Shown here: piece by piece, positions 1 through 12,065 of the stretch
Layout of the letters: every line of letters starts with the position of its first letter
How positions within the stretch are numbered: position 1 is the stretch's first letter
IMG/VR virus record: IMGVR_UViG_2579778856_000001
Source: a virus
Lineage: Duplodnaviria; Heunggongvirae; Uroviricota; Caudoviricetes
Direction: 5' to 3' (one strand)
Length of the DNA stretch: 12,065 bases
The notes under the pieces: model-generated
What the model saw: only the letters and a program-made list of their open reading frames with translations
What the model was told of the DNA's origin: nothing
Database searches by the model: none
Program-made: the position numbers and the translations under genes

Positions 1-156
1 CCTGAGCCATTTGAAAATAACATTATCATTGACGCCATTTTCACGTGCAATCTGTGCAACACAAGCTCCAGGTTGTGATGCCAGTTCCACCATACGAAGT
101 TTGAATTCATTCGAATAGTTTTTACGAGGTTCTTTTCGCCAGTCCTGTAATTCCAT
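1..156 (-). CDS. IS transposase accessory protein (OrfA/TnpA-type helix-turn-helix), N-terminal 52 codons, partial at window edge
   Basis: Reverse-complement translation from ATG at 156-154: MELQDWRKEPRKNYSNEFKLRMVELASQPGACVAQIARENGVNDNVIFKWLR. The Y-S-x-EFK...PGA-x-VAQIAR-x-x-GV-N-x-N-x-x-F-x-W pattern is typical of IS3/IS66-family first ORFs. In-frame stop (plus-strand tta at 193-195) bounds it upstream. Absent from the ORF track because it is truncated and under 60 aa. Confidence 0.6.
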   Translation of the reverse strand, partial: MELQDWRKEPRKNYSNEFKLRMVELASQPGACVAQIARENGVNDNVIFKWLR

Positions 157-241
157 ACTTAGATGTCCGTCTATATCAGATGGGCGTCTAAGTTACCAAT
201 TCTCGTCTGATGGCTACATACGGCGGTCAGTTTACGCTTAC
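1..241 (-). mobile_element. Partial insertion sequence, inner end only (element continues beyond window start); IS66-like or IS3-like
   Basis: Minus-strand transposase accessory ORF starts at 156 and runs off the window. Read on the minus strand from 241 the sequence begins GTAAGCG, which matches the 5'-GTAA start I recall for IS66-family terminal repeats; an alternative IS3-like TGACCGCC end lies at 229. Boundary not proven. Confidence 0.45.
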
Positions 242-395
242 GTCCCTTCTGGTCAAAATGGACGAAGAAATGCTCTGCTTCTTCGACAGCAACGGGCGAA
301 CCACCATGCCCCGTAAAGCTTTCTCCCTGCGTACTGGCGTAACCCGCCGCCAGCTGTTTCCAGACGCCATTTACTTCATTGAACGGGAGTTCTGA
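210..395 (+). CDS. Short ORF (61 aa), stop overlaps the RBS of the RadC-like gene; possibly the 3' remnant of a gene disrupted by the upstream IS
   Basis: ATG at 210, stop TGA 393-395, one nucleotide before the RadC ATG at 397. Reading frame is open from 192 and passes through the putative IS end (229-241). No recognisable domain. Confidence 0.3.
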   Translation: MATYGGQFTLTSLLVKMDEEMLCFFDSNGRTTMPRKAFSLRTGVTRRQLFPDAIYFIEREF

Positions 396-396
396 C

Positions 397-849
397 ATGA
401 CCATGTTTACCCAGCGTGAAACCCGTATCCTTGACCAGGCGCGTGACATTATTAGCCGGTACTACCAGCGTGGGGTTCAACTCTGTTCCCCTGATGATGT
501 TCGACGGTGCGTGATGGTTGAGCTGGCACCGCTTGAACATGAAGAGTTTGGCATCATCCTACTCGATAATCATAATCAGCTGCTGCACCGCGAAATCCTG
601 TTCAGGGGTACGCTAAACTCGGTCAGCGTTCACCCCCGTGAAGTTATTAAGCGTGTGCTGAAACATAACGCCGCCGCCGTCATCCTTGTCCATAATCACC
701 CCAGCGGCGAGCCTGAACCCAGCCGGTGTGACATCCAGTTGACCAAAAAGCTTCAGGAGCTGCTGGAAATACTGGATGTGCGGTTACTTGATCACTTTAT
801 CGTGGCAGGAACTGAAACGGTGTCGATGGCTGAGCGAGGACTGGTGTGA
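397..849 (+). CDS. RadC-like JAB/MPN-domain protein (UPF0758; YeeS/YfjY/YkfG-like)
   Basis: 150 aa from ATG 397 with SD GGGAG at 385-389 (the track's 379 start is a TTG extension). Contains the JAMM signature HNHPSGEPEPSRCD (H-x-H-x7-S-x2-D) with an upstream Glu. Size and motif match the RadC-like proteins of E. coli cryptic prophage islands. Confidence 0.85.
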   Translation: MTMFTQRETRILDQARDIISRYYQRGVQLCSPDDVRRCVMVELAPLEHEEFGIILLDNHNQLLHREILFRGTLNSVSVHPREVIKRVLKHNAAAVILVHNHPSGEPEPSRCDIQLTKKLQELLEILDVRLLDHFIVAGTETVSMAERGLV

Positions 850-895
850 TGCTGAAAGTTACTTGGTTTAATGTACGTTATTGCGGGTTACGCGC

Positions 896-1825
896 ATGAG
901 CAGGACAGCGTTGCGTCAGGTCGTGCCGGTGGTGCAAACCACCGTGTTCGATGCGTATATTGTCGGTCTGGCCCCCTCGGGACGGCGAGGTATCACCAGC
1001 CTGTTAAACCGCAGCGCCAGCATACTTAAACACGGTGCGGATGCAGCAGACTATCCGTGGGAACAACTTAACTACGCCGCCGTTGCCAAAGTGCGCGCGG
1101 CACTGCTGGATGACGGTTACGCCGTGTCATCGGTCAACATGGCGCTGTCAGCACTCCGGGGCGTAGCGCAGACGGCCTTTAACCTCAATTACATGGATGC
1201 CGAAACGCTGGCACGTATCCGGTCAGTTAAGCGCGTGAGCGGCGATGTCCAGCGCAAGGGAAGGGCGCTGGGCAGGCAGGAAATCCGGGTACTGATTCAG
1301 GCTGCAAAACAGCATCCGCAATCTGTACGGCGCTGTCGCGATGTCGCCATTGTGCTGATGCTTTGCGGAACGGGCCTGCGGGCCGGGGAACTGGTTAAAC
1401 TTGAGCGCCGGGACTATGACAACGGCATCCTGACGGTGAGGCAAGGGAAGGGGCGTAAATACCGTGAAATTCACGTGGCGGATGCGGTGGACAAGGCTAT
1501 TCGTGCGTGGCTGAAAGTTGGCGCAGACGAGGCTGACAGTGCGTTGTTTAGGCGAATTCAGCGCAGTGGTAAGGTCGCAAGCCAACCGCTGACTACGACC
1601 GGGTTAACGGGTATCCTGGCTGAGTTACAGCAAACGGCAGGTATAGCACGTTTTACCCCGCATGATATGCGGCGCACCTTCATCACCCGTTTGCTGGAGC
1701 AGGGCGTGGATATCAATACCGTCCGCCAGTTGGCAGGCCACAGCGACATATCCACGACGACGCGCTATGACTGTCGTGGTGATACTATGAAGATCAGTGC
1801 CAGCAAGCGCATCAGATGTTTTTAG
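896..1825 (+). CDS. Tyrosine-type site-specific recombinase/integrase (XerC/D-like, short form, 309 aa)
   Basis: Complete catalytic signature in order: R in GLRAGEL, K in RQGKGRKYREIHV, H-x-x-R in HDMRRTF, H in AGHSD, Y in TTRYD. ATG 896 preferred over the track's TTG at 881. Stop TAG 1823-1825. Confidence 0.85.
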   Translation: MSRTALRQVVPVVQTTVFDAYIVGLAPSGRRGITSLLNRSASILKHGADAADYPWEQLNYAAVAKVRAALLDDGYAVSSVNMALSALRGVAQTAFNLNYMDAETLARIRSVKRVSGDVQRKGRALGRQEIRVLIQAAKQHPQSVRRCRDVAIVLMLCGTGLRAGELVKLERRDYDNGILTVRQGKGRKYREIHVADAVDKAIRAWLKVGADEADSALFRRIQRSGKVASQPLTTTGLTGILAELQQTAGIARFTPHDMRRTFITRLLEQGVDINTVRQLAGHSDISTTTRYDCRGDTMKISASKRIRCF

Positions 1826-2426
1826 CAGTTGAGGCGTTGCCAGACTCGGTTTCAGTTTCATCTTCAGCACTCAACCGCGCGTACTTTTGATTCTGGATGT
1901 TAATTTGTGCATTGATATTTTCAGGCTGAAGCATCCACGCAACATCCTCACGCGCCCATTCTTTACCGTCAGAGAGTCGTTTTAACCGGGGTTTCCATAT
2001 TCCATACTCATTAAGTTTTTCTGCTACCGAAGCATATTTCTCACGATCTGACTCCCCCGTATGAAGCTTGTCAAAACGACCTTTTACAAGCTGGTAAACA
2101 GTATAGATTTCCAGTGCCTTAGGGGACCTGGCCGGGACTATCATGGGGTGTTCCTCCGGCCTATAAATCCCGTTTGGCTCTCCCTCATTGAGCAGGTCAT
2201 TAAACATGTGGTTCACGCAGGCACTCAGCACATCTGCCGCTTTCTCCGCAGCGAATTTATCCGGGCTAAAACCCGCTCCCGTCAGTTTCCGGGCAATCAG
2301 TGCCAGTTTTTGCCGGGTATCCCGTCCCAGATAAAGCTTCTTCTCCAGAAATTCAAAGACCTCGTTACTGCTTTTCCGTTCCCGGTGGCATCTGGCGTCA
2401 GCCTTGTTGCTTTGGTTACCAATCAT
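1812..2426 (-). CDS. Hypothetical protein (204 aa), unknown function, divergent from alpA
   Basis: Long minus-strand ORF. Second ATG (2426-2424) is preceded by a perfect SD GGAGGTG (plus 2429-2435), so start MIGNQSNK... is preferred over the ATG at 2438. 3' end overlaps the integrase 3' end by 14 bp (convergent). Acidic C-terminal tail. No motif I can assign. Confidence 0.6.
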   Translation of the reverse strand: MIGNQSNKADARCHRERKSSNEVFEFLEKKLYLGRDTRQKLALIARKLTGAGFSPDKFAAEKAADVLSACVNHMFNDLLNEGEPNGIYRPEEHPMIVPARSPKALEIYTVYQLVKGRFDKLHTGESDREKYASVAEKLNEYGIWKPRLKRLSDGKEWAREDVAWMLQPENINAQINIQNQKYARLSAEDETETESGNASTAKNI

Positions 2427-2445
2427 AGTCACCTCCATGACAGTG

Positions 2446-2457
2446 TTTTGTACAAAA
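2446..2457. promoter_or_regulatory. Perfect 12-bp palindrome TTTTGTACAAAA in the divergent promoter region; candidate operator
   Basis: Seen directly, about 10 bp upstream of the SD of the 1812-2426 gene and within the 222-bp divergent region shared with alpA. Confidence 0.3.
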
Positions 2458-2648
2458 TATCACCATTGAGCCTCAGTGAAAATTGCTTCTTTATATGACC
2501 GTTCTGGAGACAGAAATAGATGATCTCGAATGACATCCACATTAAAGATGCCCTTAACGTGCTCAACGAAGGCATCGTTGAGTGAATCCTTGCGTTTTTT
2601 GGTGGTTGTAAATAACCCGCTCCTGAAACAGCTCAAAGGAGCACAAGC

Positions 2649-2846
2649 ATGAACACCAACCGTATTTTGCGTAAAAAAGAGGTACTTCATCTGACGGGGA
2701 ACTCGTCAGCGACGTTGTACCGACTCATCTCGAAAGGATTCTTTCCTTTGTCAAAGAGGCTAACGGGCGACAATGGCCGGGCGGTAGGCTGGCTGGAGAG
2801 TGATATCAATAACTGGGTTAACAGCCGTATGCAGGCGGGAGAATGA
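2649..2846 (+). CDS. alpA: AlpA-family (Vis/excisionase-like) helix-turn-helix transcriptional regulator
   Basis: 65 aa, SD AAGGAG at 2636-2641. RILRKKEVLHLTG-x-S-x-ATLYRLI...FP...G-x-RAVGWLESDINNWV aligns with the recalled E. coli CP4-57 AlpA (RILRLPAVIQKTGMARATIYDWL...FPKKRMLGVKSVGWIEAEIDEWL). Confidence 0.8.
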   Translation: MNTNRILRKKEVLHLTGNSSATLYRLISKGFFPLSKRLTGDNGRAVGWLESDINNWVNSRMQAGE

Positions 2847-2847
2847 A

Positions 2848-3315
2848 ATGAAAGAGATAAAATCGAAAACCAGTTCTGCGAAAAAAACGCTGGTTCCTTG
2901 GTTCGAAACTATGGGGAAACAGGTTGGTTTATCACAAGAAACGATATCAGCAGTGTTAAAGGAGCAGCGTTTACGGATACGTAAGCTTAACTACGCATCT
3001 GCATATACAGTGTCCAATATTCTCATACAGGATTGCGGCGGGGCCGATGACATGTGGAGCAACTACGCTAAACTGGCGCTTATCCTTGAGCGTTGTAAAT
3101 ACATTCCCTGCGGGAGCAGGGCCTGTGCATATTGTTCTACCGCTCAGCAATTACATTATCAGGGGGTGGATGTAACCGGGGAATACGCTTTATATCAGTT
3201 GCCTGAGTTATTTTTAGATTTTTTAGAAACAAACGACAAAAATTCCTCTTATCATTGGGATTACAATAAGTTAGTTGAGCGGCATGAAGATGCTCAGGCG
3301 AGGTCATTCGGGTAA
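2848..3315 (+). CDS. Hypothetical protein (155 aa) with N-terminal HTH-like segment and C-terminal Cys4 cluster (C-x4-C-x4-C-x2-C)
   Basis: ATG 2848 lies 1 nt after the alpA stop (GGGAGAATGAAATG; translational coupling); the track's 2800 start overlaps alpA. Cysteines at residues 83, 88, 93, 96 (CKYIPCGSRACAYC). GC about 40-45 percent, lower than flanks. Confidence 0.6.
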   Translation: MKEIKSKTSSAKKTLVPWFETMGKQVGLSQETISAVLKEQRLRIRKLNYASAYTVSNILIQDCGGADDMWSNYAKLALILERCKYIPCGSRACAYCSTAQQLHYQGVDVTGEYALYQLPELFLDFLETNDKNSSYHWDYNKLVERHEDAQARSFG

Positions 3316-3346
3316 TAGCCATTTCTGTATGGTGAAAAACTGACAT

Positions 3347-3381
3347 ATTACCCTGCCACTGCATTTTGGTGGCAGGGTAAT
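3347..3381. promoter_or_regulatory. Perfect 13-bp inverted repeat (ATTACCCTGCCAC, 9-nt spacer, GTGGCAGGGTAAT); operator or RNA hairpin between the two Cys-cluster genes
   Basis: Seen directly, 32 bp after the upstream stop and 22 bp before the next ATG. No T-tract immediately 3' on the plus strand, so not a canonical intrinsic terminator. Contains the 12-mer CCACTGCATTTT that recurs at 4335-4346. Confidence 0.4.
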
Positions 3382-3402
3382 CAATACAGCTAGGAATATT
3401 AA

Positions 3403-4257
3403 ATGAACGATTCTTATTACTTCAGAACATCTGACCCGGATTACATTCGTCACGCACCGTCAATGCTTGAGATTTTAAGTAAAGCATTCCCCACTATTAT
3501 TACCCAGCAGGAAAGTGAGTATGAACTGCAGCGTCTTAACCATTTACTAAATAAACTGAAAGGCAGCAATCGCTGCTACAACATCATTGCTCAAAAACTA
3601 AGGCAGTGCAGAAACGGATCTCCATGCAACAGTCTTATATGCCCGCATTGCCAGCGGGAACGCATTCTGGCGCAACTGGCTATGTTGCATGTCTTGCCGG
3701 GGAATTCAGCAGAATACGTGGGAGTGGTCCTGTTTTTCAACAAGGATACGCAAACTCCGCCGCCATGGAAGAACATTGGGGCGCTCAGGGCGCAAATCGG
3801 TCGTTATAAGCAGAGGATAAGCCGGGTACTTAACCGCCTGGGGTACGCCGGTCCGGCCACAGGCACCTTCAGTATGATGCGACATATGCCTGATGGCCCA
3901 GAAGAGCGTATTTTCTGGGTTCCACAGTTGTGTTTGTTCCTGCCCAATGACAGTACGTTGATTAAGGGGCTAAAAGCGCATATGTCGCGAAGTGGTGGGG
4001 CATTCATTGATGCATCGACGCTTAACACACCAGTGATCGTGCTCAGGTATAAAGATCCCGCGAGACTGATTTCATGCGCCCTGAATCCAGTCTGGCACAC
4101 AGCAGATTACACACTGACTGATAAAGACGCTCTTGTTAAGTCAAGAATGGAGCTACTGAAAGGCCGGACACTGTTAAAAAGTCTGCTTACCCTGGACTCA
4201 CTCGGAACAGGTGTCGTTTCTTTTTCGTTTGGGCAACCCCCAGGGAAAGTGCACTGA
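3403..4257 (+). CDS. Hypothetical protein (284 aa) with zinc-ribbon-like Cys4 cluster (C-x5-C-x4-C-x2-C)
   Basis: ATG 3403 with AGGA 7 nt upstream. Cys cluster CRNGSPCNSLICPHC at residues 69-83 (nt 3607-3651). No family assignable by eye. Confidence 0.65.
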   Translation: MNDSYYFRTSDPDYIRHAPSMLEILSKAFPTIITQQESEYELQRLNHLLNKLKGSNRCYNIIAQKLRQCRNGSPCNSLICPHCQRERILAQLAMLHVLPGNSAEYVGVVLFFNKDTQTPPPWKNIGALRAQIGRYKQRISRVLNRLGYAGPATGTFSMMRHMPDGPEERIFWVPQLCLFLPNDSTLIKGLKAHMSRSGGAFIDASTLNTPVIVLRYKDPARLISCALNPVWHTADYTLTDKDALVKSRMELLKGRTLLKSLLTLDSLGTGVVSFSFGQPPGKVH

Positions 4258-4269
4258 TTTACCGGTAAT

Positions 4270-4370
4270 GCAGCAACTGCAATGCACTTTTGCTGTTGAT
4301 TAAATTGCAGTGGAACGACGAATAACAGCGGCAACCACTGCATTTTCGTTGTTGTAAAACTGCAAAGCTT
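4270..4370. repeat. Iteron-like repeat cluster: four copies of ACTGCA(A/T) (one inverted), an 8-bp perfect inverted repeat, and ATGCACTTT twice
   Basis: ACTGCAA at 4276-4282, inverted copy at 4305-4311, ACTGCAT at 4337-4343, ACTGCAA at 4359-4365. IR TGCAGTGG 4306-4313 / CCACTGCA 4335-4342. ATGCACTTT at 4282-4290 and again at 4393-4401. Confidence 0.4.
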
Positions 4371-4519
4371 GCCAGTGATTTTGATGGCGCTGATGCACTT
4401 TAACATTCCAACTGTCTCGATTTTAACGCAACCGTCTGTTTTCTGCAGGGGCTCACGGATGCCTCTGCACACCCGATCCTTACCATCAACTGACGAGTTA
4501 GCGCATCTGTGAGGGCTTT

Positions 4520-4833
4520 CTGTGTTTCTGTCAGTGAATATTCTACACACAATGGGGGGAGCGGTCAGCGAGCACCATTGCCATTGAGCGCAACGGAGAG
4601 CTTGGGGACATGCAGCACTACGGAGGCTTCATCTCCTTCTCATGTCATTAAACGATACGGCGAACGAGCGCAGCGAGTGAGGGAAGGCGTCAGCCTGAAC
4701 AGGGGGAAAGATTTGCGACCGGAGTGGAGCAAATCATGGGCGGAGCCCATCCTCGCGACTGGGGTTTTGACTTTCGAATTGCCCAGCGTTGAGTTTGGTT
4801 AATGTAGTGAGACGAGGATGCTGAGAGGGGACC
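4520..4833 (+). other. Purine/G-rich non-coding segment; candidate structured 5' leader or small RNA upstream of the polymerase-like gene
   Basis: No ATG-initiated ORF of plausible codon usage. The only track ORF here (4509-4802) starts with GTG and is rich in rare codons (AGG, CGA, GGG). Runs such as GGGGGGAGCGG, GAGGGAAGGCG, ACAGGGGGAAAG. Tight hairpin ATGGGC-GGA-GCCCAT at 4736-4750. Confidence 0.25.
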
Positions 4834-6231
4834 GTGAGTACTGAAAAGGATTATCCAGTGAAGATCCCTAAGTGGGTTTATGACCGTATTACTGAAATAA
4901 CGGATTATGTCGTGGGGGATACGCAATGGGCTGTTACCCGGCGGCAGACAGTACGGTGGTTCCTGGCTCACATATGGCTGGAAACAGACGATGATGGCTG
5001 GACTATATGCACTGTCCGGGATATCCGTAGCAGCTATGCCAGTCTCCTGGGACAGTGTGAAATTAGTTACCAGGGGGAGTGCTTTATGTCCACGCTAACT
5101 GATTTCCTGCCGACACTTTCGGATATTGAATTTCGTGCAGGAAAAGCGAGCAAAGACCCGGAAAAGCGTAGAGCCAGTGCATGGCGGTTCAACCCCCTGC
5201 TGCCTGTGTGTGATGAGTCTGCCAGGGGTAAGTTAAATCTGGTTGACTTGGATACTGGTGAGTCTGTTAGTTTTAGAGCTCTGCTTCAGGGGAACGGGAA
5301 AGCTCCTGGGCATGCGATAGATGTAGAGAAACGCCAGACGGCCCTAAAACAAACGGAAAAGGACTTCTTGGCCAAAGTTGGGCGGGGGCGCATGAGTATA
5401 CAGTTTGTGAAGGAATTGCGTAGCCGTGAGCCGGATCACTATTACCGCGCAGGAATACGCAGCCTTAACCATCTCTACAATGGCAGGATTGAGGGACAAT
5501 ATGTCACTTACGACCATCATTATCGTCTGACGTTTGGAGGGCGGTATTATGATCAAGCTTTCCAGAATCTGCCCAATGAGTTCAAAGCTAAATTTCGGAC
5601 CGGGTTACTCAACTATGACATCGAAGCGTGCAATCTGGCCTGTCTGAACCATCTGTTCAGACAGTATGACGTCGATTATCGTGTGAAGTCATCGATATAT
5701 AAAACCATGATGGAACATACCGGGCTGACCCGTAAACAGTGCAAACAGATGGTCCATACCACCACCTACAGAATTGGGCGTGTGACTATTGGTGTTAATG
5801 ATGGCCTTGGGGCAAAAGTGTATGGATGGTGCGGTAACAGCAAAAAAAAGGCGCTAAAGATTTTGCGTTGGTGGAACCGTTATATCAGTCCATTGAAATC
5901 TGCGCTTGAGTCATTGCTGGAACGTGTGCATGGCGCACACCGCAAGAGTTGTTCATCACCGCGTAACTATCACAGGTACGCTAATGAAGTCGGATTAATA
6001 CTGGATCTTAATAGTGAGGTGTATCAGCGTGAAAAGACTCACCATCATCAATATGCGCGGAATAAGGCACTGTTGGCGTTTATGATCTGTGGTGTGGAGC
6101 AGGCGTATATCCGTGAGGTTGTCAGTATGAACCCTGGTCGTGTCTGCATGCTGGATCATGATGGGGTAGTGGCAACGGGCGCGCTTTCACTACCGGACTG
6201 GCGTGGTTTCACGATGAAAGTGAAGGACTAG
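4834..6231 (+). CDS. Uncharacterised protein (465 aa) with family-A / T7-like single-subunit polymerase motifs A, B (O-helix) and C; putative minimal right-hand polymerase
   Basis: GTG start at 4834 with SD GAGAGGGGA immediately upstream and in-frame stop at 4822-4824. Motif A-like NYDIEACNLACLNHL (res 260-274; compare Pol I DYSQIELRIMAHL). O-helix-like RKQCKQMVHTTTY (R300, K304, H308, Y312; compare Pol I R754-K758-F762-Y766). Motif C-like CMLDHDGVV (res 438-446; compare Pol I MQVHDELV). A-to-B and B-to-C spacing (about 42 and 137 aa) resembles Klenow and T7 DNA polymerase. Motif-level inference only. Confidence 0.65.
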   Translation: MSTEKDYPVKIPKWVYDRITEITDYVVGDTQWAVTRRQTVRWFLAHIWLETDDDGWTICTVRDIRSSYASLLGQCEISYQGECFMSTLTDFLPTLSDIEFRAGKASKDPEKRRASAWRFNPLLPVCDESARGKLNLVDLDTGESVSFRALLQGNGKAPGHAIDVEKRQTALKQTEKDFLAKVGRGRMSIQFVKELRSREPDHYYRAGIRSLNHLYNGRIEGQYVTYDHHYRLTFGGRYYDQAFQNLPNEFKAKFRTGLLNYDIEACNLACLNHLFRQYDVDYRVKSSIYKTMMEHTGLTRKQCKQMVHTTTYRIGRVTIGVNDGLGAKVYGWCGNSKKKALKILRWWNRYISPLKSALESLLERVHGAHRKSCSSPRNYHRYANEVGLILDLNSEVYQREKTHHHQYARNKALLAFMICGVEQAYIREVVSMNPGRVCMLDHDGVVATGALSLPDWRGFTMKVKD

Positions 6232-6297
6232 CTTACTTTCTTGAATTTAACTATCTGCGATCTCTGATAAGGGCGTATTACGTTGTCAATCATAATG

Positions 6298-6328
6298 GGA
6301 TATGCGCATTGGAACGATGTGCATATCC
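6298..6328. repeat. 11-bp inverted repeat / hairpin (GGATATGCGCA, 9-nt spacer, TGTGCATATCC; one G-T position)
   Basis: Seen directly, 67 bp after the polymerase-like gene stop and 27 bp before the IS30-type terminal repeat. No downstream T-tract. Confidence 0.3.
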
Positions 6329-6355
6329 AGTAAGTGATCCATGTCCGCTTTGAGC

Positions 6356-7090
6356 TGTGAGTTCAACGGGTCGATGCAACGCTGTCCCTAATCAAGGGGG
6401 ACGTTGCCATGAAACGAAGAACTCGTATTAACTACACGCCAGAGCAAAAGGTGATTATTTGGGACAGATATAAGCAAGGTGATTCCCTGCATGATATCCC
6501 CCAGAATGTTCGACAGATTTCACTCTACTATCATGCCTACAATCCACCAGGCCGGTGGCTACCGTCCTCCCGTGCGAAAGCGGCACCGGTTAGCGTTTTC
6601 GCTTGATGAAAAAGAGGAGATATCCAGAGGACTGGTAGCAAAACGCATCATCAGGGACATCGCTGCTAAATTATCAATAGCTCCCTCAACGATTAGCCGC
6701 GAGATCAGGAGGCACGGCGGTGCAAAACAATACCGTGCAGCAAAAGCCGATCCTGCTGCGTGGGAAAATGCTCTGAGACCAAAACCTTGCAAGCTAATTG
6801 AAAGCCCCACATTGTGTAAAATCATTGCAGAGAAGATGCATCAGGACTGGTCGCCGGAACAAATTGGCGGTTGGCTAAAACGCTGTTATCCCGATAATCA
6901 GGAAATGCATGTGTCACATGAAATGATTTATAAAACGCTTTTTATACCAACCCGGGGAGCTTTAAAAAAAGAGCTGCAGCAATGCCTCAGAAGCGGAAGA
7001 GTAGTGCGTAGATCCAAAACCTCATCACTTAAAGTAAACAGAGATACATTCTGGTCACGAATGCCCGGTTGTTCGTGCTTTGCGTTTTAA
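6356..7090 (+). mobile_element. IS30-family insertion sequence remnant (left inverted repeat plus 5' part of the transposase gene; 3' half deleted)
   Basis: Left end TGTGAGTTCAACGGGTCGATGCAAC at 6356-6380 resembles the recalled IS30 IRL (TGTAGATTCAATTGGTCAACGCAAC). Transposase ORF begins 53 bp inside. Element ends abruptly; no right repeat before the membrane protein gene. Confidence 0.7.
6409..7090 (+). pseudogene. IS30-family transposase, frameshifted near 6498-6502 and truncated (N-terminal HTH region only, DDE domain missing)
   Basis: Track ORFs 6409-6606 and 6479-7090 are consecutive pieces of one IS30-like transposase in two frames. MKRRTRINYTPEQKVIIWDRYKQGDSLHDI then, in the other frame, FDRFHSTIMP...RKRHRLAFSLDEKEEISRGL...APSTISREIRRHGG...KPCKL...WSPEQIGGWL...EMIYKTLF. 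Frame switch coincides with a C5 run. Product about 200 aa versus about 380 for intact IS30 transposase. Confidence 0.75.
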
Positions 7091-7154
7091 TCGCATTTTA
7101 CAGTTTCTGCCTGCGTGCAGAGGTTGATGGTATTTTCTGAAAAAGCGGCTCGCT

Positions 7155-7182
7155 TTGCTAATGCATATGGCACAAATACAAC
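7155..7182 (+). promoter_or_regulatory. Candidate sigma70-type promoter (TTGCTA, 16-bp spacer, TACAAC) upstream of the membrane protein gene
   Basis: Hexamers at 7155-7160 and 7177-7182, about 45 bp upstream of ATG 7228. Matched by eye; weak -10. Confidence 0.2.
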
Positions 7183-7227
7183 AGTTTGTGTCATTCTGAC
7201 CCATCTTTATACCGCGACGGTGGAAAC

Positions 7228-9798
7228 ATGGATGAGCTGCTAACCCTTGGCTGCATTGCTTTATTCTTCGCACTGGTGGTGGTTCCCATCCTCGCGATTA
7301 TCGCGCTCAGCCGCAGCACGGCTGTTCGTTCTGAGCTGGCGACCCTGCGTCGCCGGGTGGAGGTGCTTGAGCAGCGCGGTGTGACTGAAGCACCCGCCAC
7401 AGTGGTAACAACTGTGCCGCAGAGTGTTTCGCAGATGGTTGTGCCTGTTGAAACGTCTTCGCCTGCGGTTAACATCGTGCTGTCGGAGCCTGTGGCTGAT
7501 GTCACGCCTGAGTCCGTTGACCCCTGGCGTCCACAACCGAAGCCGCAAAACGAGGCGCTACCCACACCAGCGGTCGAACAATCTTCCGCTTTTGGTGGGG
7601 TGATGTCGTCCCTGGTGCGCTGGTTTATGCAGGGCAACCCGCTGGCAAAGCTGGGTATTCTGCTTCTCTTCCTTGGCTTCTCCTTCCTGCTGCGTTATAC
7701 GGTTGAACACTCCCTGTTCCCGCTTGAGCTACGTCTGGTGGCGACTTCGCTGTTTGCGATTGCCCTGCTGGTAGTGGGCTGGCGATTGCGGCATAAACAG
7801 CTGGTTTATGCGCTGATCATACAGGGTGGAGCTACGGGGACGCTCTATCTCACCGTTTTTGGCGCATTCTGGCTCTGGCAGATGCTGCCGATGACGCTGG
7901 CGTTTGCATTACTGGTGGCGATTTGCGCGGCGAGCGTGGGACTGGCGATTATGCAAAAAGCGCTCAGCCTCGCGATGCTGGCAAGTATCGGTGGCTATCT
8001 GGCACCGCTGTTGCTTTCCACCGGCGGCGGTAGTCATGTGGCGCTCTTCTCTTTCTACCTTCTGCTTTCCGTCGGTATTCTCGCCATCAGCATCTGGCAA
8101 CACTGGCGCGAGCTTAATCTGCTTGGCCTGTTATTTACCTTTGGTATCGGCGGTCTTTGGGGACTCGACGGCTATCGATCAGAGTATTACCTGAGCAGTC
8201 AGCTTTTCCTGATAGCCAATACGATCATTTTTGGTGTGCTGAGCGTGGCGCTATCGCTACGAGCACAGGAGAAAGGTAAGCAGATTATTGATGGCGTGCT
8301 GTTGTTTGCATCGCCGCTGGTCGGTTTTGGCATGCAGTACGCCATAACCCGGCATATGGAATATGGTCCGGCGCTTAGCGCGCTGGGTTACGGCGGTTTC
8401 TATCTGGCGTTAGCATGGCTTGCATTGCGTCGCTATCCCTCTTTGGGGAGGCCGCTGGTGCTGGCGGCGCTGGCGCTGGGTGGGGCATTTACCACGCTCG
8501 CTATCCCACTGGCGCTTTCGGCCCGCTGGACGGCGATGGCCTGGGCGCTGGAAGGTCTCGGCATCCTCTGGCTGGGCGTGCAACAGCAGCAGCGGCGTAT
8601 GAGCTATAGCGGCACTGCGCTGCTGGTGCTGGCAGTGTGCAGCGCGCTGTGGGCGCAGATGAACGGGATGAGCGCGCTTTCTCTGGTGCTAATCTTTGCC
8701 GTACTCAGCCTCAGCTGGCTGGCTGCCGCCTGGCTGTGGCGCAATATTCAGTTGCAGGGTAGTTGGGTTCTGTTGGCTGGCGGTTTGATCTTCTGGATAA
8801 TCGCGCTCATTGGGGCATCGCAACTGGTGCTGAAAAAGGACTCGCTGGTGCTGTCTGGCGTGCTGGCGTTAATGGCGATATCGGTCTGGGGCTGGCGGAT
8901 TGTCTCTGGTCGTCTGGCCTGGTGGGAGCTGGATGTCAGCAAATGGTTGCTGTGGCCGACGATGCTGGTGATGCTGCTGTCTCAAATTTCACAACATGAG
9001 ATTTTTGCTGCGGGCTGGCAGAATCTGGCCTGGTGTCTGGCGTTACCCGCTGCGGGGGCATTGCTCTGGCGTGATGCTGAGACGTTGCCGCCGCGCCTCT
9101 CCAGACTGGCGCACCTTTCACTCTTCTGGATGATTCTGCTCGCGCTGGCGGCGGAGCTATTCTGGTTTGCGCAAGATCTGCCATGGGGCATGGCGGCGTG
9201 GGGCTCCGGCCTGATGATGGCCGCGGGGGGCCTGCTCATCTTTCTCGTTCATGAGGCGGTTCATCGTCAGCTATGGCCATTCCGAAGCTGGCCCGCACTC
9301 TACGCTTCTCAGGCGATGATACCGGTAGCTGCGGTATTGGTTGTTCTGCTAGTACTGACGAATTTGCAGGATGGCGTAGTTTATCGCCAGACCTGGCTGC
9401 CGCTGGTGAATCCACTGGAGGAGGGGGCCGCTTTTGCGCTACTGGGACTCATTGTATTTTATCGCGTTTCGCAGCGCTTTTTCCCGGTGCAGATTTCGGT
9501 ATGCCGTCCCTGGCCGCTCATTGCACTGCTGGCGCTTAGCTTCTGGTGGCTGAATGGCATCCTGCTGCGCGCATTGGCCTGGTACGGCGAAGTGCCCTGG
9601 AGCGCGGAAACACTGTGGCATTCGCGGCTGATTCAGACCTGTTTTGCCCTGTTCTGGATGCTGGCGGCATTAGTGGTGATGCTACGTGCGACCCGGCGTT
9701 GCTCACGTCGCGAATGGCTTTGTGGATCCGTATTGTTAGGGATTGTTATTGTGAAACTGATGTTGGTAGACAGTGCGCGTGGCGGCGGCCTGGCATGA
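7228..9798 (+). CDS. Large polytopic inner-membrane protein (857 aa); N-terminal TM helix, coiled-coil, Pro/Val/Thr-rich linker, then about 20 predicted TM helices; family unassigned
   Basis: ATG 7228 preceded by GGTGGA (the track's 7186 start is a TTG extension). Long hydrophobic stretches rich in L/A/G/W separated by short polar loops. GC well above the island genes (sampled 60-bp stretch about 68 percent). Stop TGA 9796-9798. Confidence 0.8.
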   Translation: MDELLTLGCIALFFALVVVPILAIIALSRSTAVRSELATLRRRVEVLEQRGVTEAPATVVTTVPQSVSQMVVPVETSSPAVNIVLSEPVADVTPESVDPWRPQPKPQNEALPTPAVEQSSAFGGVMSSLVRWFMQGNPLAKLGILLLFLGFSFLLRYTVEHSLFPLELRLVATSLFAIALLVVGWRLRHKQLVYALIIQGGATGTLYLTVFGAFWLWQMLPMTLAFALLVAICAASVGLAIMQKALSLAMLASIGGYLAPLLLSTGGGSHVALFSFYLLLSVGILAISIWQHWRELNLLGLLFTFGIGGLWGLDGYRSEYYLSSQLFLIANTIIFGVLSVALSLRAQEKGKQIIDGVLLFASPLVGFGMQYAITRHMEYGPALSALGYGGFYLALAWLALRRYPSLGRPLVLAALALGGAFTTLAIPLALSARWTAMAWALEGLGILWLGVQQQQRRMSYSGTALLVLAVCSALWAQMNGMSALSLVLIFAVLSLSWLAAAWLWRNIQLQGSWVLLAGGLIFWIIALIGASQLVLKKDSLVLSGVLALMAISVWGWRIVSGRLAWWELDVSKWLLWPTMLVMLLSQISQHEIFAAGWQNLAWCLALPAAGALLWRDAETLPPRLSRLAHLSLFWMILLALAAELFWFAQDLPWGMAAWGSGLMMAAGGLLIFLVHEAVHRQLWPFRSWPALYASQAMIPVAAVLVVLLVLTNLQDGVVYRQTWLPLVNPLEEGAAFALLGLIVFYRVSQRFFPVQISVCRPWPLIALLALSFWWLNGILLRALAWYGEVPWSAETLWHSRLIQTCFALFWMLAALVVMLRATRRCSRREWLCGSVLLGIVIVKLMLVDSARGGGLA

Positions 9799-9991
9799 TC
9801 AGACATGAGATAAATGAAGGGGGATCCGTGAGATAAATAACGAATTGGAGTGGGTTAACATGGGTTCTGGTGAACAGAACTGAAATTCTTTTCCGCTATA
9901 CGATAGATAAGTCGGGCATTGAAATCATCCTTCCTGGCAACTTAGAATCGAGTTTGCTGAAACATGACCCGCAACAAAAAGGATGATTCCA

Positions 9992-10153
9992 ATGACTACT
10001 CAAAACAATAAGCATGATAGCCTGGATTACTCAGAAAAGCCCAAAAGCAAGCACATCGTGACGTTCGAGCGCGATTCCGGTAGAAAAGGAGAATCGTCTT
10101 CCTCTGCCAATAAAACCACTATGCCGGCAGCCCCTGCCCCAGGGAAAAAATAA
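9992..10153 (+). CDS. Possible small hydrophilic protein (53 aa), K/S-rich; not in the ORF track because under 60 aa
   Basis: ATG 9992 with AAGGA 9 nt upstream. MTTQNNKHDSLDYSEKPKSKHIVTFERDSGRKGESSSSANKTTMPAAPAPGKK, stop TAA 10151-10153. Alternative in-frame ATG at 9983. Confidence 0.3.
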   Translation: MTTQNNKHDSLDYSEKPKSKHIVTFERDSGRKGESSSSANKTTMPAAPAPGKK

Positions 10154-10156
10154 ACA

Positions 10157-10789
10157 TCATTCATCGTTCGTTGCACGAACGCGCCTGATCTCCACTCTGG
10201 CAATCTGATCTGCTGGAATATAGGTTGCCAGAGCTCCCCAGTACTTATCAACCACGCCTTTATACTCTTCCCATTCGTTACTGCCTGAAGGGCTGCTGTG
10301 CGTGACGTAAAGAACCATATCGCCTTTATTCCCCAGGGTAAACGGACCGTTAGGCCACTCTTCAAAGTTCCCTGGCAGCCGTGACATCATACCGGAACCA
10401 TCGCGAAGAATCACTCTGACCTCGGTAACGCTGAAGCCTGTTTGATCAAACATTGCCTGCCATGCTGAGCTGGTATCGTCAGACCATGAAATATCATTAT
10501 TCCACAGTAATCTGTACATCCATTTGCGACCGTACCTGCGCCACCACGCACCGCATGTAAGGGCACACAGAAGTGCTGGTGGTGTTGCCAGCCAGGCATT
10601 CAGACCTGCCCACATAACAGCCTGGTAAGCCATCATTGCTGTCAGGCCAAAAATCAGCGAAGAAAAAGTCACCTCAATGGGCTTGTGGTGATCCTTCAGT
10701 CCCACATTCGCAATAAAATACCCAATATAGCCACTGGTCAGGGTCACCAGTGTTGCCCATGGCAGATTTAACAACGAAACGTCAAACAT
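10157..10789 (-). CDS. Membrane protein (210 aa): three predicted N-terminal TM helices plus a soluble C-terminal domain; unknown function
   Basis: Start at the ATG for MFDVSLLNLPW... (plus 10787-10789) preceded by SD GGGAG. The track's longer start is a TTG lying inside the upstream terminator hairpin. Sits directly downstream of the mor terminator. Confidence 0.65.
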   Translation of the reverse strand: MFDVSLLNLPWATLVTLTSGYIGYFIANVGLKDHHKPIEVTFSSLIFGLTAMMAYQAVMWAGLNAWLATPPALLCALTCGAWWRRYGRKWMYRLLWNNDISWSDDTSSAWQAMFDQTGFSVTEVRVILRDGSGMMSRLPGNFEEWPNGPFTLGNKGDMVLYVTHSSPSGSNEWEEYKGVVDKYWGALATYIPADQIARVEIRRVRATNDE

Positions 10790-10827
10790 ATTTTCTCCCT
10801 GCATCCTGAATACTAAAGAGAGAGCAT

Positions 10828-10861
10828 AAAAAAAGCACGGTAAGGGGTCTACCGTGCTTTT
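10828..10861 (-). terminator. Rho-independent terminator (bidirectional hairpin) downstream of mor
   Basis: 9-bp stem AGCACGGTA / TACCGTGCT (10834-10842 and 10850-10858) with 7-nt loop, flanked by an A7 run at 10828-10834 (a U7 tract on the minus-strand transcript) and TTTT at 10858-10861 on the plus strand. Confidence 0.6.
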
Positions 10862-10903
10862 ATACAATAAGGAGATTTTTGAAAGGACTTTAACAAGCAG
10901 GAA

Positions 10904-11302
10904 TTATCTGGATTTGTTAACGTCTTTCGTCTCCTCTGGCAGATCTTCATCAAACAACCTGCCCTGCATCCGATCCAGTTCTTCTTTTCTGACCCGCTTA
11001 ACCACGCTGTAGACCCACTGAAGCGAAACACCAAACTTGCGGGCCAGTTCGTGGTGGTTGCGTCCGTTAAACTCCCTGAAGATTTCCCGGTCGCGCTGAC
11101 TGACCTTCCATACCATGCCCATCGGGAAATAAACGTTTTGCCCGCCCCAGACCTGCATCATTCGGTTCGCGACGGCCTGACCAATCTGGTCGGCAACTTC
11201 GGGCTCAATATCAATAATCTCGCGAACGGTCTCAGAGGTATGCTGTGCCAGTTCCACCAGGAGTTCCGGCCCCTTACTTCGAAACTGATTCAGGTCGCTC
11301 AT
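10904..11302 (-). CDS. mor: Mor-family transcriptional activator (phage Mu middle operon regulator-like)
   Basis: 132 aa. WGGQNVYFPMG...RDREIFREFNGRNHHELARKFGVSLQWVYSVVKRVR aligns with the recalled Mu Mor core (GGGQVYIPRG...RD...FNGRN...EL...YGV...VY...R). Confidence 0.75.
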   Translation of the reverse strand: MSDLNQFRSKGPELLVELAQHTSETVREIIDIEPEVADQIGQAVANRMMQVWGGQNVYFPMGMVWKVSQRDREIFREFNGRNHHELARKFGVSLQWVYSVVKRVRKEELDRMQGRLFDEDLPEETKDVNKSR

Positions 11303-11726
11303 GTTTGACTCCCGCAGCTCTGCGCTGCCACTTCTTCAGTTTCTCAATAACACTGCTTGCCTGTTCAGTACTGAGCCAGCGCAGGGCGCTGATGCCCGTT
11401 TCCCGCTTGATCCACCGCGCTAATGCATTTTCTGAACGGTCACGAACAATGCCGGCAGCAGCCATTTCAAGCCATAGCGCACGGATTTTCCTGGACTGCG
11501 GATGGTTATCCAGCGGTAAACCGGAGCTGGCTTTTCCGGCAGGCTTAACGCGAAAGCCTTTCCTTTTCATGGATTCCAGCACGCAGTTTAGTTGTGTGGT
11601 ATCCATTCCTTTGGTTGAGGCTTTACCGGTCAGCCCCTGTAACATCTGGCGGTAGGTGTCTTCATCCATACCCAGTTCATTACGGGCAATATGAATGAGC
11701 TGGATAAGACGTTGTTTAGTCATCAT
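11274..11726 (-). CDS. Mu gp16/GemA-like protein (DUF1018-type), upstream partner of mor
   Basis: RLIQLIHIARNELGMDEDTYRQMLQGLTGKAS...SRKIRALW pattern as in Mu-like prophage gp16/GemA proteins. 3' end overlaps the mor start by 29 bp. Start chosen at the ATGATG pair preceded by AAAGGAG rather than the track's 11765. My reading here was off by one base relative to the track; track frame used. Confidence 0.6.
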   Translation of the reverse strand: MMTKQRLIQLIHIARNELGMDEDTYRQMLQGLTGKASTKGMDTTQLNCVLESMKRKGFRVKPAGKASSGLPLDNHPQSRKIRALWLEMAAAGIVRDRSENALARWIKRETGISALRWLSTEQASSVIEKLKKWQRRAAGVKHERPESVSK

Positions 11727-11931
11727 CGTTGCTCCTTTTACCTGCGCCACCGATATAATCGACATATAAAGGAAGCGCCACAGGCCAGCACAGGAACATC
11801 ACCGACCAGCTAATCCAGTAGCCAGCACCACTGTAACGTGAATAAAACCCTGAACGGCGGTGCAGTTCAGCAGTACACCAACCGACAAAACAATACCAGA
11901 ACAGGGCACATACAACAGATTCAGCCGTCAT
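11716..11931 (-). CDS. Possible small membrane protein (about 71 aa, two TM helices) overlapping the gemA-like start
   Basis: Track ORF 11716-12045 starts with TTG; first ATG gives MTAESVVCALFWYCFVGWCTAELHRRSGFYSRYSGAGYWISWSVMFLCWPVALPLYVDYIGGAGKRSNDDD. Stop overlaps the gemA-like start (coupling). Weak SD. Confidence 0.3.
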   Translation of the reverse strand: MTAESVVCALFWYCFVGWCTAELHRRSGFYSRYSGAGYWISWSVMFLCWPVALPLYVDYIGGAGKRSNDDD

Positions 11932-12065
11932 TCTGAATATCCCCCCAACTGATATGAATATTACGGGCAGCAATGACAGGGTCGTTATTCCACCATGCAC
12001 CTGACATGTATTTTTCAACCTGTTCGCGTCCGGCAATAACACCAATTGTGATCCCCGGCCTGACG

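What the first reader, a model, noticed from the sequence alone, without database searches (positions are those of the whole stretch)
6356..7090. IS30-family remnant: frameshift in a C5 run plus loss of the 3' half
The transposase reading frame switches at a homopolymeric C5 tract (6498-6502) and the element lacks the DDE domain and right inverted repeat. With the other IS end at 1-241, the cargo (about 242-6355) is bracketed by IS ends that both face inward, a sign of repeated IS-mediated rearrangement.
Basis: partly seen in the sequence, partly recalled or inferred. Interest (0 to 1): 0.4.

Follow-up and report, generated by a model that had tools for sequence, protein, structure and literature searches.

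The report
Dead ISCfr4-like (IS30-family) insertion sequence stump
This is the dead left half of an IS30-family jumping gene (closest to ISCfr4) in an E. coli genomic island; reference annotation already flags it as a broken transposase, so it is ordinary, apart from serving as a small lineage marker.

Summary
The core observation holds. Window 6341-7038 is 92% identical to positions 1-697 of the 1251-bp IS30-family element ISCfr4. It has the left inverted repeat, the ribosome-binding site and the first 208 transposase codons. The only gap in that alignment is one extra C at the C5 run (6498-6502). The DDE (rve) core (ISCfr4 residues 234-323) and the right inverted repeat are absent from the window and from 9-13 kb either side in related genomes.

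Corrections:
- The IS begins at 6341, not 6356, and ends at about 7034-7038, not 7090.
- The last ~14 codons of ORF2 (about 7049-7090) are the tail of a deleted Amidohydro_3 gene. That gene sits next to DUF2339 in Citrobacter and Klebsiella.

The C-run does vary. About 22% of roughly 504 carrier genomes have C4, giving one 226-aa ORF. C4/C5 is perfectly linked to a radC SNP in 14 genomes, so the frameshift was one clonal event that came after the truncation.

The "other IS end" at 1-241 belongs to ISEc23 (IS66 family). It is a simple insertion with an 8-bp duplication, found in only 35 genomes. There is no composite transposon. RefSeq already annotates the locus "frameshifted; incomplete; missing C-terminus". 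Interest is low.

The parts
6341..6380 (+). Left terminal inverted repeat (IRL) of the ISCfr4-like element
   Evidence: It aligns to the ISCfr4 IRL (L002 1433-1472). It also aligns, as a reverse complement, to the ISCfr4 IRR (L002 2644-2683) at 34/40. It is the only IR copy in the window.
6341..7038 (+). IS-derived DNA, equal to ISCfr4 positions 1-697 of 1251 at 91.5% nt identity
   Evidence: blastn. Homology to ISCfr4 stops abruptly after 7034-7038.
6409..6606 (+). ORF1: transposase codons 1-30 (up to the C-run), then an out-of-frame read to a stop (65 aa)
   Evidence: The first 30 residues match the ISCfr4 transposase in 29 of 30 positions.
6498..6502 (+). C5 homopolymer holding the +1 insertion that shifts the frame. 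The ancestral in-frame allele is C4.
   Evidence: It is the single alignment gap against ISCfr4. The C4 allele matches at 100% in about 22% of carriers. SE15 with C4 reads as one 226-aa ORF.
6503..7033 (+). The rest of the transposase N-terminal region (residues 32-208) in the shifted frame: HTH_38 DNA-binding domain plus linker
   Evidence: Pfam HTH_38 E=1.5e-9. NCBIfam transpos_IS30 profile positions 1-108 of 267. 189/208 aa identical to ISCfr4 Tnp. The PGAP pseudogene corresponds to window 6409-7033.
7035..7048 (.). Breakpoint interval of the deletion that removed the IS right half
   Evidence: IS homology ends at 7034-7038. The amidohydrolase-tail match starts at about 7049 by protein and 7063-7067 by nucleotide.
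7049..7090 (+). 3' tail (~13 codons plus stop) of a deleted Amidohydro_3 gene, fused in frame to the truncated transposase ORF
   Evidence: The window tail is FWSRMPGCSCFAF*. The conserved tail in 8 Citrobacter, Klebsiella and Raoultella loci immediately upstream of DUF2339 is AFWG[AV]LGCSCFAF*. That 622-aa neighbour matches Amidohydro_3 at E=6e-138.
1..241 (-). Not part of the stump: the tnpA-proximal end of an intact ISEc23 (IS66 family), a separate late insertion
   Evidence: The element is 2532 bp with the 8-bp TSD GTCCCTTC, and window 1-241 is identical to the MNCRE44 copy.

Best explanation
This is an immobile, decaying stump of an ISCfr4-like IS30-family insertion sequence. It lies at the seam between two modules of an E. 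coli genomic island found in ST131-type strains.

Shown:
- The stump keeps the left inverted repeat, the ribosome-binding site and the first 208 of 386 transposase codons.
- It lacks the whole DDE/rve catalytic core and the right inverted repeat, so it can neither make an active transposase nor act as a two-ended substrate.
- The DNA to its right is the last ~14 codons of an amidohydrolase gene, followed by the DUF2339 gene. This is the same arrangement seen in Citrobacter and Klebsiella chromosomes.

Inferred order of events:
1. The IS sat in or upstream of the amidohydrolase gene.
2. One deletion ran from IS position ~695 to near the 3' end of that gene. This created an in-frame 226-aa chimeric ORF (the C4 allele).
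3. Later, in one sublineage, slippage in the C4 run added a C to give C5. This split the ORF into the 65-aa and 203-aa ORFs seen in the window.

The truncation is shared by all carriers examined. The frameshift is found in about 78% of them and is inherited clonally.
For: - Family and closest relative: tblastn and blastn give 91% aa and 92% nt identity to ISCfr4 over IS positions 1-697. There is an HTH_38 hit and a partial NCBIfam transpos_IS30 hit.
- Frameshift: the single gap falls at the C-run.
- Missing parts.
- Chimeric tail and Citrobacter-like right module.
- Order of events: all 14 genomes compared share one contiguous junction across 242-9795. Seven have C4 and seven have C5.
- Clonal inheritance: C4 always comes with 573G and 2701T. 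C5 always comes with 573T, plus 2701T or 2701A. This is a nested pattern with only about 4 variable sites in 9.5 kb.
- C4 is in frame and the same length as ISCfr4 at that site, so it is the ancestral state.
- PGAP independently annotates C5 copies as 'frameshifted; incomplete; missing C-terminus' and C4 copies as 'incomplete' only.
Against: - No genome with an intact IS at this site was found, and none with the amidohydrolase gene still whole next to it. The single-deletion scenario is therefore inferred, not observed.
- The breakpoint can only be placed within 7035-7048, because the closest amidohydrolase relatives are only about 77% identical there.
- The closest intact IS is 92% identical, not the same element, so a few differences, including the G-to-C change that created the C4 run, cannot be dated.
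- The 14 genomes used for linkage are a small, non-random sample of about 504 carriers.
Confidence: 0.9

Rival explanations
1. The C-run is a contingency (phase-variable) tract. It switches a truncated DNA-binding transposase derivative on (C4) and off (C5) at high frequency.
For: Both C4 and C5 alleles exist among isolates. The tract is a homopolymer inside a coding sequence. With C4 the ORF is open for 226 aa.
Against: The allele is perfectly linked to a SNP 5.9 kb away in 14 of 14 genomes and nests with a second SNP. That indicates one historical change, not repeated switching. Only two lengths were seen in 59 evenly sampled carriers. A run of 4-5 C is short compared with known phase-variable tracts (established knowledge).
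Confidence: 0.03
2. The C4/C5 difference is a homopolymer sequencing or assembly error, and there is really only one allele.
For: Long-read assemblies often miscount homopolymers (established knowledge).
Against: There is perfect association with an ordinary substitution at window 573, seen as RadC WP_000177771 against WP_000177770. The same split appears in genomes from many laboratories and dates, including SE15 and EC958.
Confidence: 0.02
3. The two overlapping ORFs are a functional arrangement with a programmed ribosomal frameshift, as in IS1 or IS3, rather than a mutation.
For: CCC-C contexts are known to be prone to low-level +1 slippage by tRNA-Pro (own knowledge, not tested here). The ribosome-binding site and start codon are intact.
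Against: Intact relatives (ISCfr4 and 91 plasmid-borne copies at 90-95% aa) encode one uninterrupted 386-aa ORF. The in-frame C4 allele exists at the same locus. Even if frameshifted, the product would lack the catalytic domain.
Confidence: 0.02
4. Window 242-6355 is the cargo of a composite, IS-bracketed unit mobilised or rearranged by the two flanking IS ends.
For: An IS terminus abuts each side of the segment, and both transposase genes read outward.
Against: The two ends belong to different families, IS66 and IS30. ISEc23 is complete and flanked by an 8-bp target duplication inside one gene, so it is a simple insertion. It is present in 35 genomes, whereas the stump is in about 504. In genomes without ISEc23 the island continues uninterrupted to the left.
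Confidence: 0.01

Closest known systems
ISCfr4 (IS30 family; e.g. Citrobacter freundii plasmid NZ_CP135466.1 104132-105382, transposase WP_032949009.1)
   Same: The left inverted repeat, ribosome-binding site and first 208 transposase codons are collinear, at 91.5% nt and 91% aa identity. Apart from the one extra C there are no indels.
   Different: Only positions 1-697 of 1251 are present. There is no rve/DDE domain, no right IR and a +1 frameshift. At about 92% nt identity this is a related IS rather than a copy of ISCfr4 itself. No closer intact copy was found in 72,556 plasmids or 5,426 E. coli genomes.
IS30 (the family prototype), specifically its N-terminal 17-kDa transposase fragment
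   Same: Both have an N-terminal helix-turn-helix region without the catalytic domain. For IS30, such a fragment binds bp 9-35 of the IS ends (Stalder et al. 1990, as cited in PMC7780238).
   Different: Binding was not tested here. In this window the ORF is additionally frameshifted at codon 31, so even that fragment is not made as a single product.
PGAP/RefSeq pseudogene annotation of this very locus (e.g. CHQ92_RS22480 in SA186, EC958_RS06935 in EC958)
   Same: It has identical sequence and is annotated 'transposase; frameshifted; incomplete; partial in the middle of a contig; missing C-terminus' over window 6409-7033.
   Different: The annotation does not name the IS family. It also does not note the IRL, the amidohydrolase-derived tail or the C4/C5 lineage split.

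Membership tests
IS30 family insertion sequence | Transposase N-terminal helix-turn-helix DNA-binding region (HTH_38 type) | tested here: met
   Pfam HTH_38 scores E=1.5e-9 and 37.8 bits, above the 27-bit cutoff. The same domain in ISCfr4 Tnp lies at residues 62-102.
IS30 family insertion sequence | DDE (rve/integrase-core) catalytic domain in the same single ORF | tested here: not met
   No rve hit was found. The remnant ends at residue 208, while rve in ISCfr4 spans 234-323. tblastn with the C-terminal half finds nothing. The domain is absent because of truncation, so this is a remnant and not a functional member.
IS30 family insertion sequence | Curated family HMM (NCBIfam NF033563 transpos_IS30) above its cutoff | tested here: not met
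   The score is 61.5 bits against a cutoff of 80, matching only profile positions 1-108 of 267. This is what a truncated copy should give.
IS30 family insertion sequence | Pair of terminal inverted repeats | tested here: not met
   Only the IRL is present (6341-6380). No IRR exists in the window or within 9-13 kb in related genomes.
IS30 family insertion sequence | Short (2-3 bp) target-site duplication flanking the element | not testable with these tools
   The right end and its flank have been deleted, so no duplication can be read.
IS30 family insertion sequence | Collinear nucleotide homology to a named family member | tested here: met
   There are 698 aligned columns at 91.5% identity to ISCfr4 from the first base of its IRL. 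PGAP names that element 'IS30-like element ISCfr4 family transposase'.
Composite (IS-bracketed) transposon | Two copies or ends of the same IS flanking the cargo | tested here: not met
   The left flank is ISEc23 (IS66 family) and the right flank is the ISCfr4-like stump (IS30 family). ISEc23 carries its own 8-bp TSD.

The most novel reading that the evidence does not exclude
In the ~22% of carrier strains with the in-frame C4 allele, the 226-aa chimeric protein may be expressed. It consists of the IS30-type HTH region plus an 18-residue foreign tail. It could act as a DNA-binding-only transposase derivative. One possibility is that it binds ISCfr4-like inverted repeats in trans and damps transposition of incoming plasmid-borne ISCfr4 copies. 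Another is that it influences the downstream DUF2339/DUF3999 genes. The C5 frameshift in the dominant ST131 lineages would then be a loss of that activity, possibly leaky through low-level +1 slippage at CCC-C.
Probability: 0.04. Interest if true: 0.3.

Novelty: already known. Interest (0 to 1): 0.1.

Why it matters
It matters little biologically, because dead IS stumps are common in E. coli islands and this one is already flagged as a pseudogene in RefSeq.

Three modest points of use came out of the work:
1. The stump marks the exact seam where a Citrobacter-like chromosomal segment (amidohydrolase tail, DUF2339, DUF3999) was joined to an integrase/AlpA-type mobile module. This helps reconstruct how the island was assembled.
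2. The C4/C5 indel, together with SNPs at window 573 and 2701, forms a nested set of clonal markers within the carrier lineage, which includes ST131 strains SE15 and EC958.
3. ORF2 is a cautionary example. Its last 14 codons come from another gene, so ORF ends should not be taken as the element's boundaries.

Tried and rejected
- I searched for a closer intact copy of the IS in 72,556 plasmids by tblastn and in 5,426 E. coli genomes by megablast. Nothing intact was closer than about 91-92%. The two plasmid hits at 99% or more are the same frameshifted stump.
- I looked for the right IR and right half with a degenerate pattern, sensitive blastn with word size 7, and tblastn. All came back empty.
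- I looked for IS30-type sequence or the left-module genes next to DUF2339 in 80 loci from other species. None was found, so no pre-deletion intermediate was recovered.
- A promoter and terminator consensus scan of 6230-7300 gave counts at chance level, with no promoter-like site in or near the IRL. It was not informative.
- I considered and rejected a programmed frameshift, phase variation, assembly error and a composite transposon (see rival explanations).
- I did not run the large protein-database searches, structure prediction or RNA tools, because they could not change the verdict.
- No RefSeq complete genome carries both the ISEc23 junction and the Mu-like junction of this window, so the source strain was not identified.

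Full report
**What is in the sequence.** The stated region holds two overlapping ORFs on the + strand: 6409-6606 (65 aa) and 6479-7090 (203 aa). Pfam finds an HTH_38 helix-turn-helix domain in ORF2 and no catalytic domain. I made a conceptual repair by removing one C. The repaired protein matches the first 108 of 267 positions of NCBIfam's IS30-family transposase model, but scores below the cutoff, as a truncated copy should. The window is E. coli chromosome. Positions 242-9795 are 99.99-100% identical to several complete genomes. In those genomes PGAP annotates window 6409-7033 as "transposase; frameshifted; incomplete; missing C-terminus".

**Closest intact relative and anatomy.** tblastn against plasmids shows the nearest intact elements are ISCfr4-type IS30-family elements at about 91% aa identity. 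I fetched one from a Citrobacter freundii plasmid. There the IS spans L002 1433-2683 (1251 bp) and carries a single 386-aa transposase ORF.
- Window 6341-7038 aligns to IS positions 1-697 at 91.5% identity.
- The first ~40 bp (6341-6380) are the left inverted repeat. They also match the ISCfr4 right repeat in reverse complement at 34/40.
- The alignment has exactly one gap, ATCGCC-AG in ISCfr4 against ATCCCCCAG in the window. This places a +1 insertion in the C5 run at 6498-6502.
- After repair, 189 of 208 residues match ISCfr4 Tnp without any indel.
- In ISCfr4 the rve (DDE) domain lies at residues 234-323, so the remnant lacks all of it.
- No second inverted repeat, and no DNA or protein trace of the right half, exists in the window or within 9-13 kb in strains SA186 and MNCRE44.

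The IS starts 15 bp earlier than stated (6341) and ends about 52 bp earlier (about 7038).

**What lies right of the breakpoint.** Homology to ISCfr4 stops abruptly after 7034-7038. I fetched 80 loci from other species that encode relatives of the downstream DUF2339 protein. Nucleotide homology between the window and Citrobacter loci runs from the DUF2339 gene upstream to window 7063-7067 and no further. None of these loci has IS30-type sequence or the genes of window 5000-6340. In C. werkmanii the upstream neighbour is a 622-aa Amidohydro_3 protein (E=6e-138) that ends ...AFWGALGCSCFAF*. The same tail is conserved in eight Citrobacter, Klebsiella and Raoultella loci. The window's ORF2 ends ...TFWSRMPGCSCFAF*. 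The last ~14 codons of ORF2 (about 7049-7090) are therefore the leftover 3' end of that amidohydrolase gene, fused in frame to the truncated transposase. The breakpoint lies within 7035-7048. The stump thus marks a seam. To its left is an integrase/AlpA-type module. To its right is a Citrobacter-like chromosomal segment with higher G+C (0.54-0.63 across the DUF2339 gene).

**Does the C-run vary?** It does. A 140-nt query with an artificial C4 run matched some complete genomes at 100%, including SE15. In an evenly spaced listing of 59 carriers, 13 were C4 and 46 were C5 (99.3% identity with a 141-bp span). No other length appeared, so about 22% of roughly 504 carriers have C4. In SE15 the C4 allele reads as one 226-aa ORF, and PGAP calls C4 copies "incomplete" but not "frameshifted".

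I compared seven C4 and seven C5 genomes across window 242-9795.
- All share the same truncation junction.
- C4 always comes with 573G (RadC WP_000177771) and 2701T.
- C5 always comes with 573T (RadC WP_000177770) and either 2701T (SA186, GPEC102) or 2701A (the window, MNCRE44, EC958 and others).
- Only about four sites vary in 9.5 kb.

This nested pattern indicates one historical C4-to-C5 change inherited clonally. It does not fit phase variation or assembly error. C4 has the same length as the in-frame ISCfr4 sequence, so it is the older state. Both alleles share the truncation, so the truncation came first.

**The "other IS end".** Window 1-241 is identical to the tnpA-proximal end of ISEc23, an IS66-family element. 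In MNCRE44 this element is complete at 2532 bp. It lies inside the hypothetical gene WP_000954131 and is flanked by a perfect 8-bp duplication, GTCCCTTC. The junction is found in only 35 of 5426 genomes. In genomes without it, the island continues uninterrupted to the left. It is therefore a late, simple insertion of an unrelated IS. Segment 242-6355 is not a bracketed cargo.

**Mechanism.**
- Shown: the stump has one end only and no catalytic domain, so it cannot transpose or supply transposase.
- Inferred: a single deletion from IS position ~695 to near the end of the amidohydrolase gene created the chimera. Slippage in the C4 run later added one C.
- From the literature: an N-terminal IS30 transposase fragment binds bp 9-35 of the IS ends (Stalder et al. 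1990, cited in PMC7780238). The C4 product could in principle still bind ISCfr4-type ends. This was not tested, and the most widespread lineages carry the frameshift, which argues against selection for it.

**Comparison and verdict.** This is a decayed relative of ISCfr4 (IS30 family). It meets the HTH and nucleotide-collinearity criteria. Because of truncation it fails the DDE-domain, paired-IR and HMM-cutoff criteria, so it is a remnant and not a functional family member. The locus is already annotated as a frameshifted, C-terminally truncated transposase pseudogene in RefSeq. ISCfr4 itself is only mentioned in passing in plasmid papers. The work here adds the family and nearest relative, exact boundaries, the amidohydrolase-derived tail, the order of events and the lineage distribution of C4 and C5. 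Interest is low.

Noticed in passing
window 9796-12065: This is the end of a Mu-like transposable prophage, beginning TGATCAGACATGAG. Its early operon (transposase, ExeA-type ATPase, Gam, DUF2786, gp16, Mor) lies on the - strand and reads toward this end. It interrupts the DUF2339 gene, which is intact at 2658 bp in other strains. The same element sits at many different chromosomal sites in other E. coli (next to rfaH, phnP, yfaV, flgJ and others). No RefSeq complete genome has this particular junction.
   Followed up: partly
window 1-241 (junction 241/242): An intact ISEc23 (IS66 family, 2532 bp) is inserted in hypothetical gene WP_000954131 with the 8-bp duplication GTCCCTTC. It is present in 35 of 5426 complete genomes. 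PGAP calls a probably spurious hybrid ORF across the junction at window 171-398 on the - strand.
   Followed up: yes
window ~5841 (gene 5086-6231): EC958 and Dog168 carry an extra A here. It splits the 381-aa hypothetical protein WP_033555205 into two ORFs. This is a second homopolymer-type frameshift in the same island.
   Followed up: no
L001 12583-13978 (just right of the window's DUF2339 gene in other strains): The DUF3999 gene that follows DUF2339 is annotated as frameshifted in all 14 genomes inspected. The Citrobacter-like segment therefore seems to be decaying as a whole.
   Followed up: no
window 896-6231; L003 859-6390: The left module encodes a tyrosine integrase (896-1825) and an AlpA-type regulator (2649-2846). 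Three ORFs have no Pfam hit (2848-3315, 3403-4257, 5086-6231). Further left in MNCRE44 lie a retron Ec67-type reverse transcriptase and an 'ABC-three component system', which gives a defence-island-like context.
   Followed up: partly
window ~4476-4478 (strain AVS0051, L015 3869-5038): Another strain has an ISEc52 (IS3 family, frameshifted) inserted in the intergenic region here. This shows that the island keeps collecting IS insertions independently in different strains.
   Followed up: no
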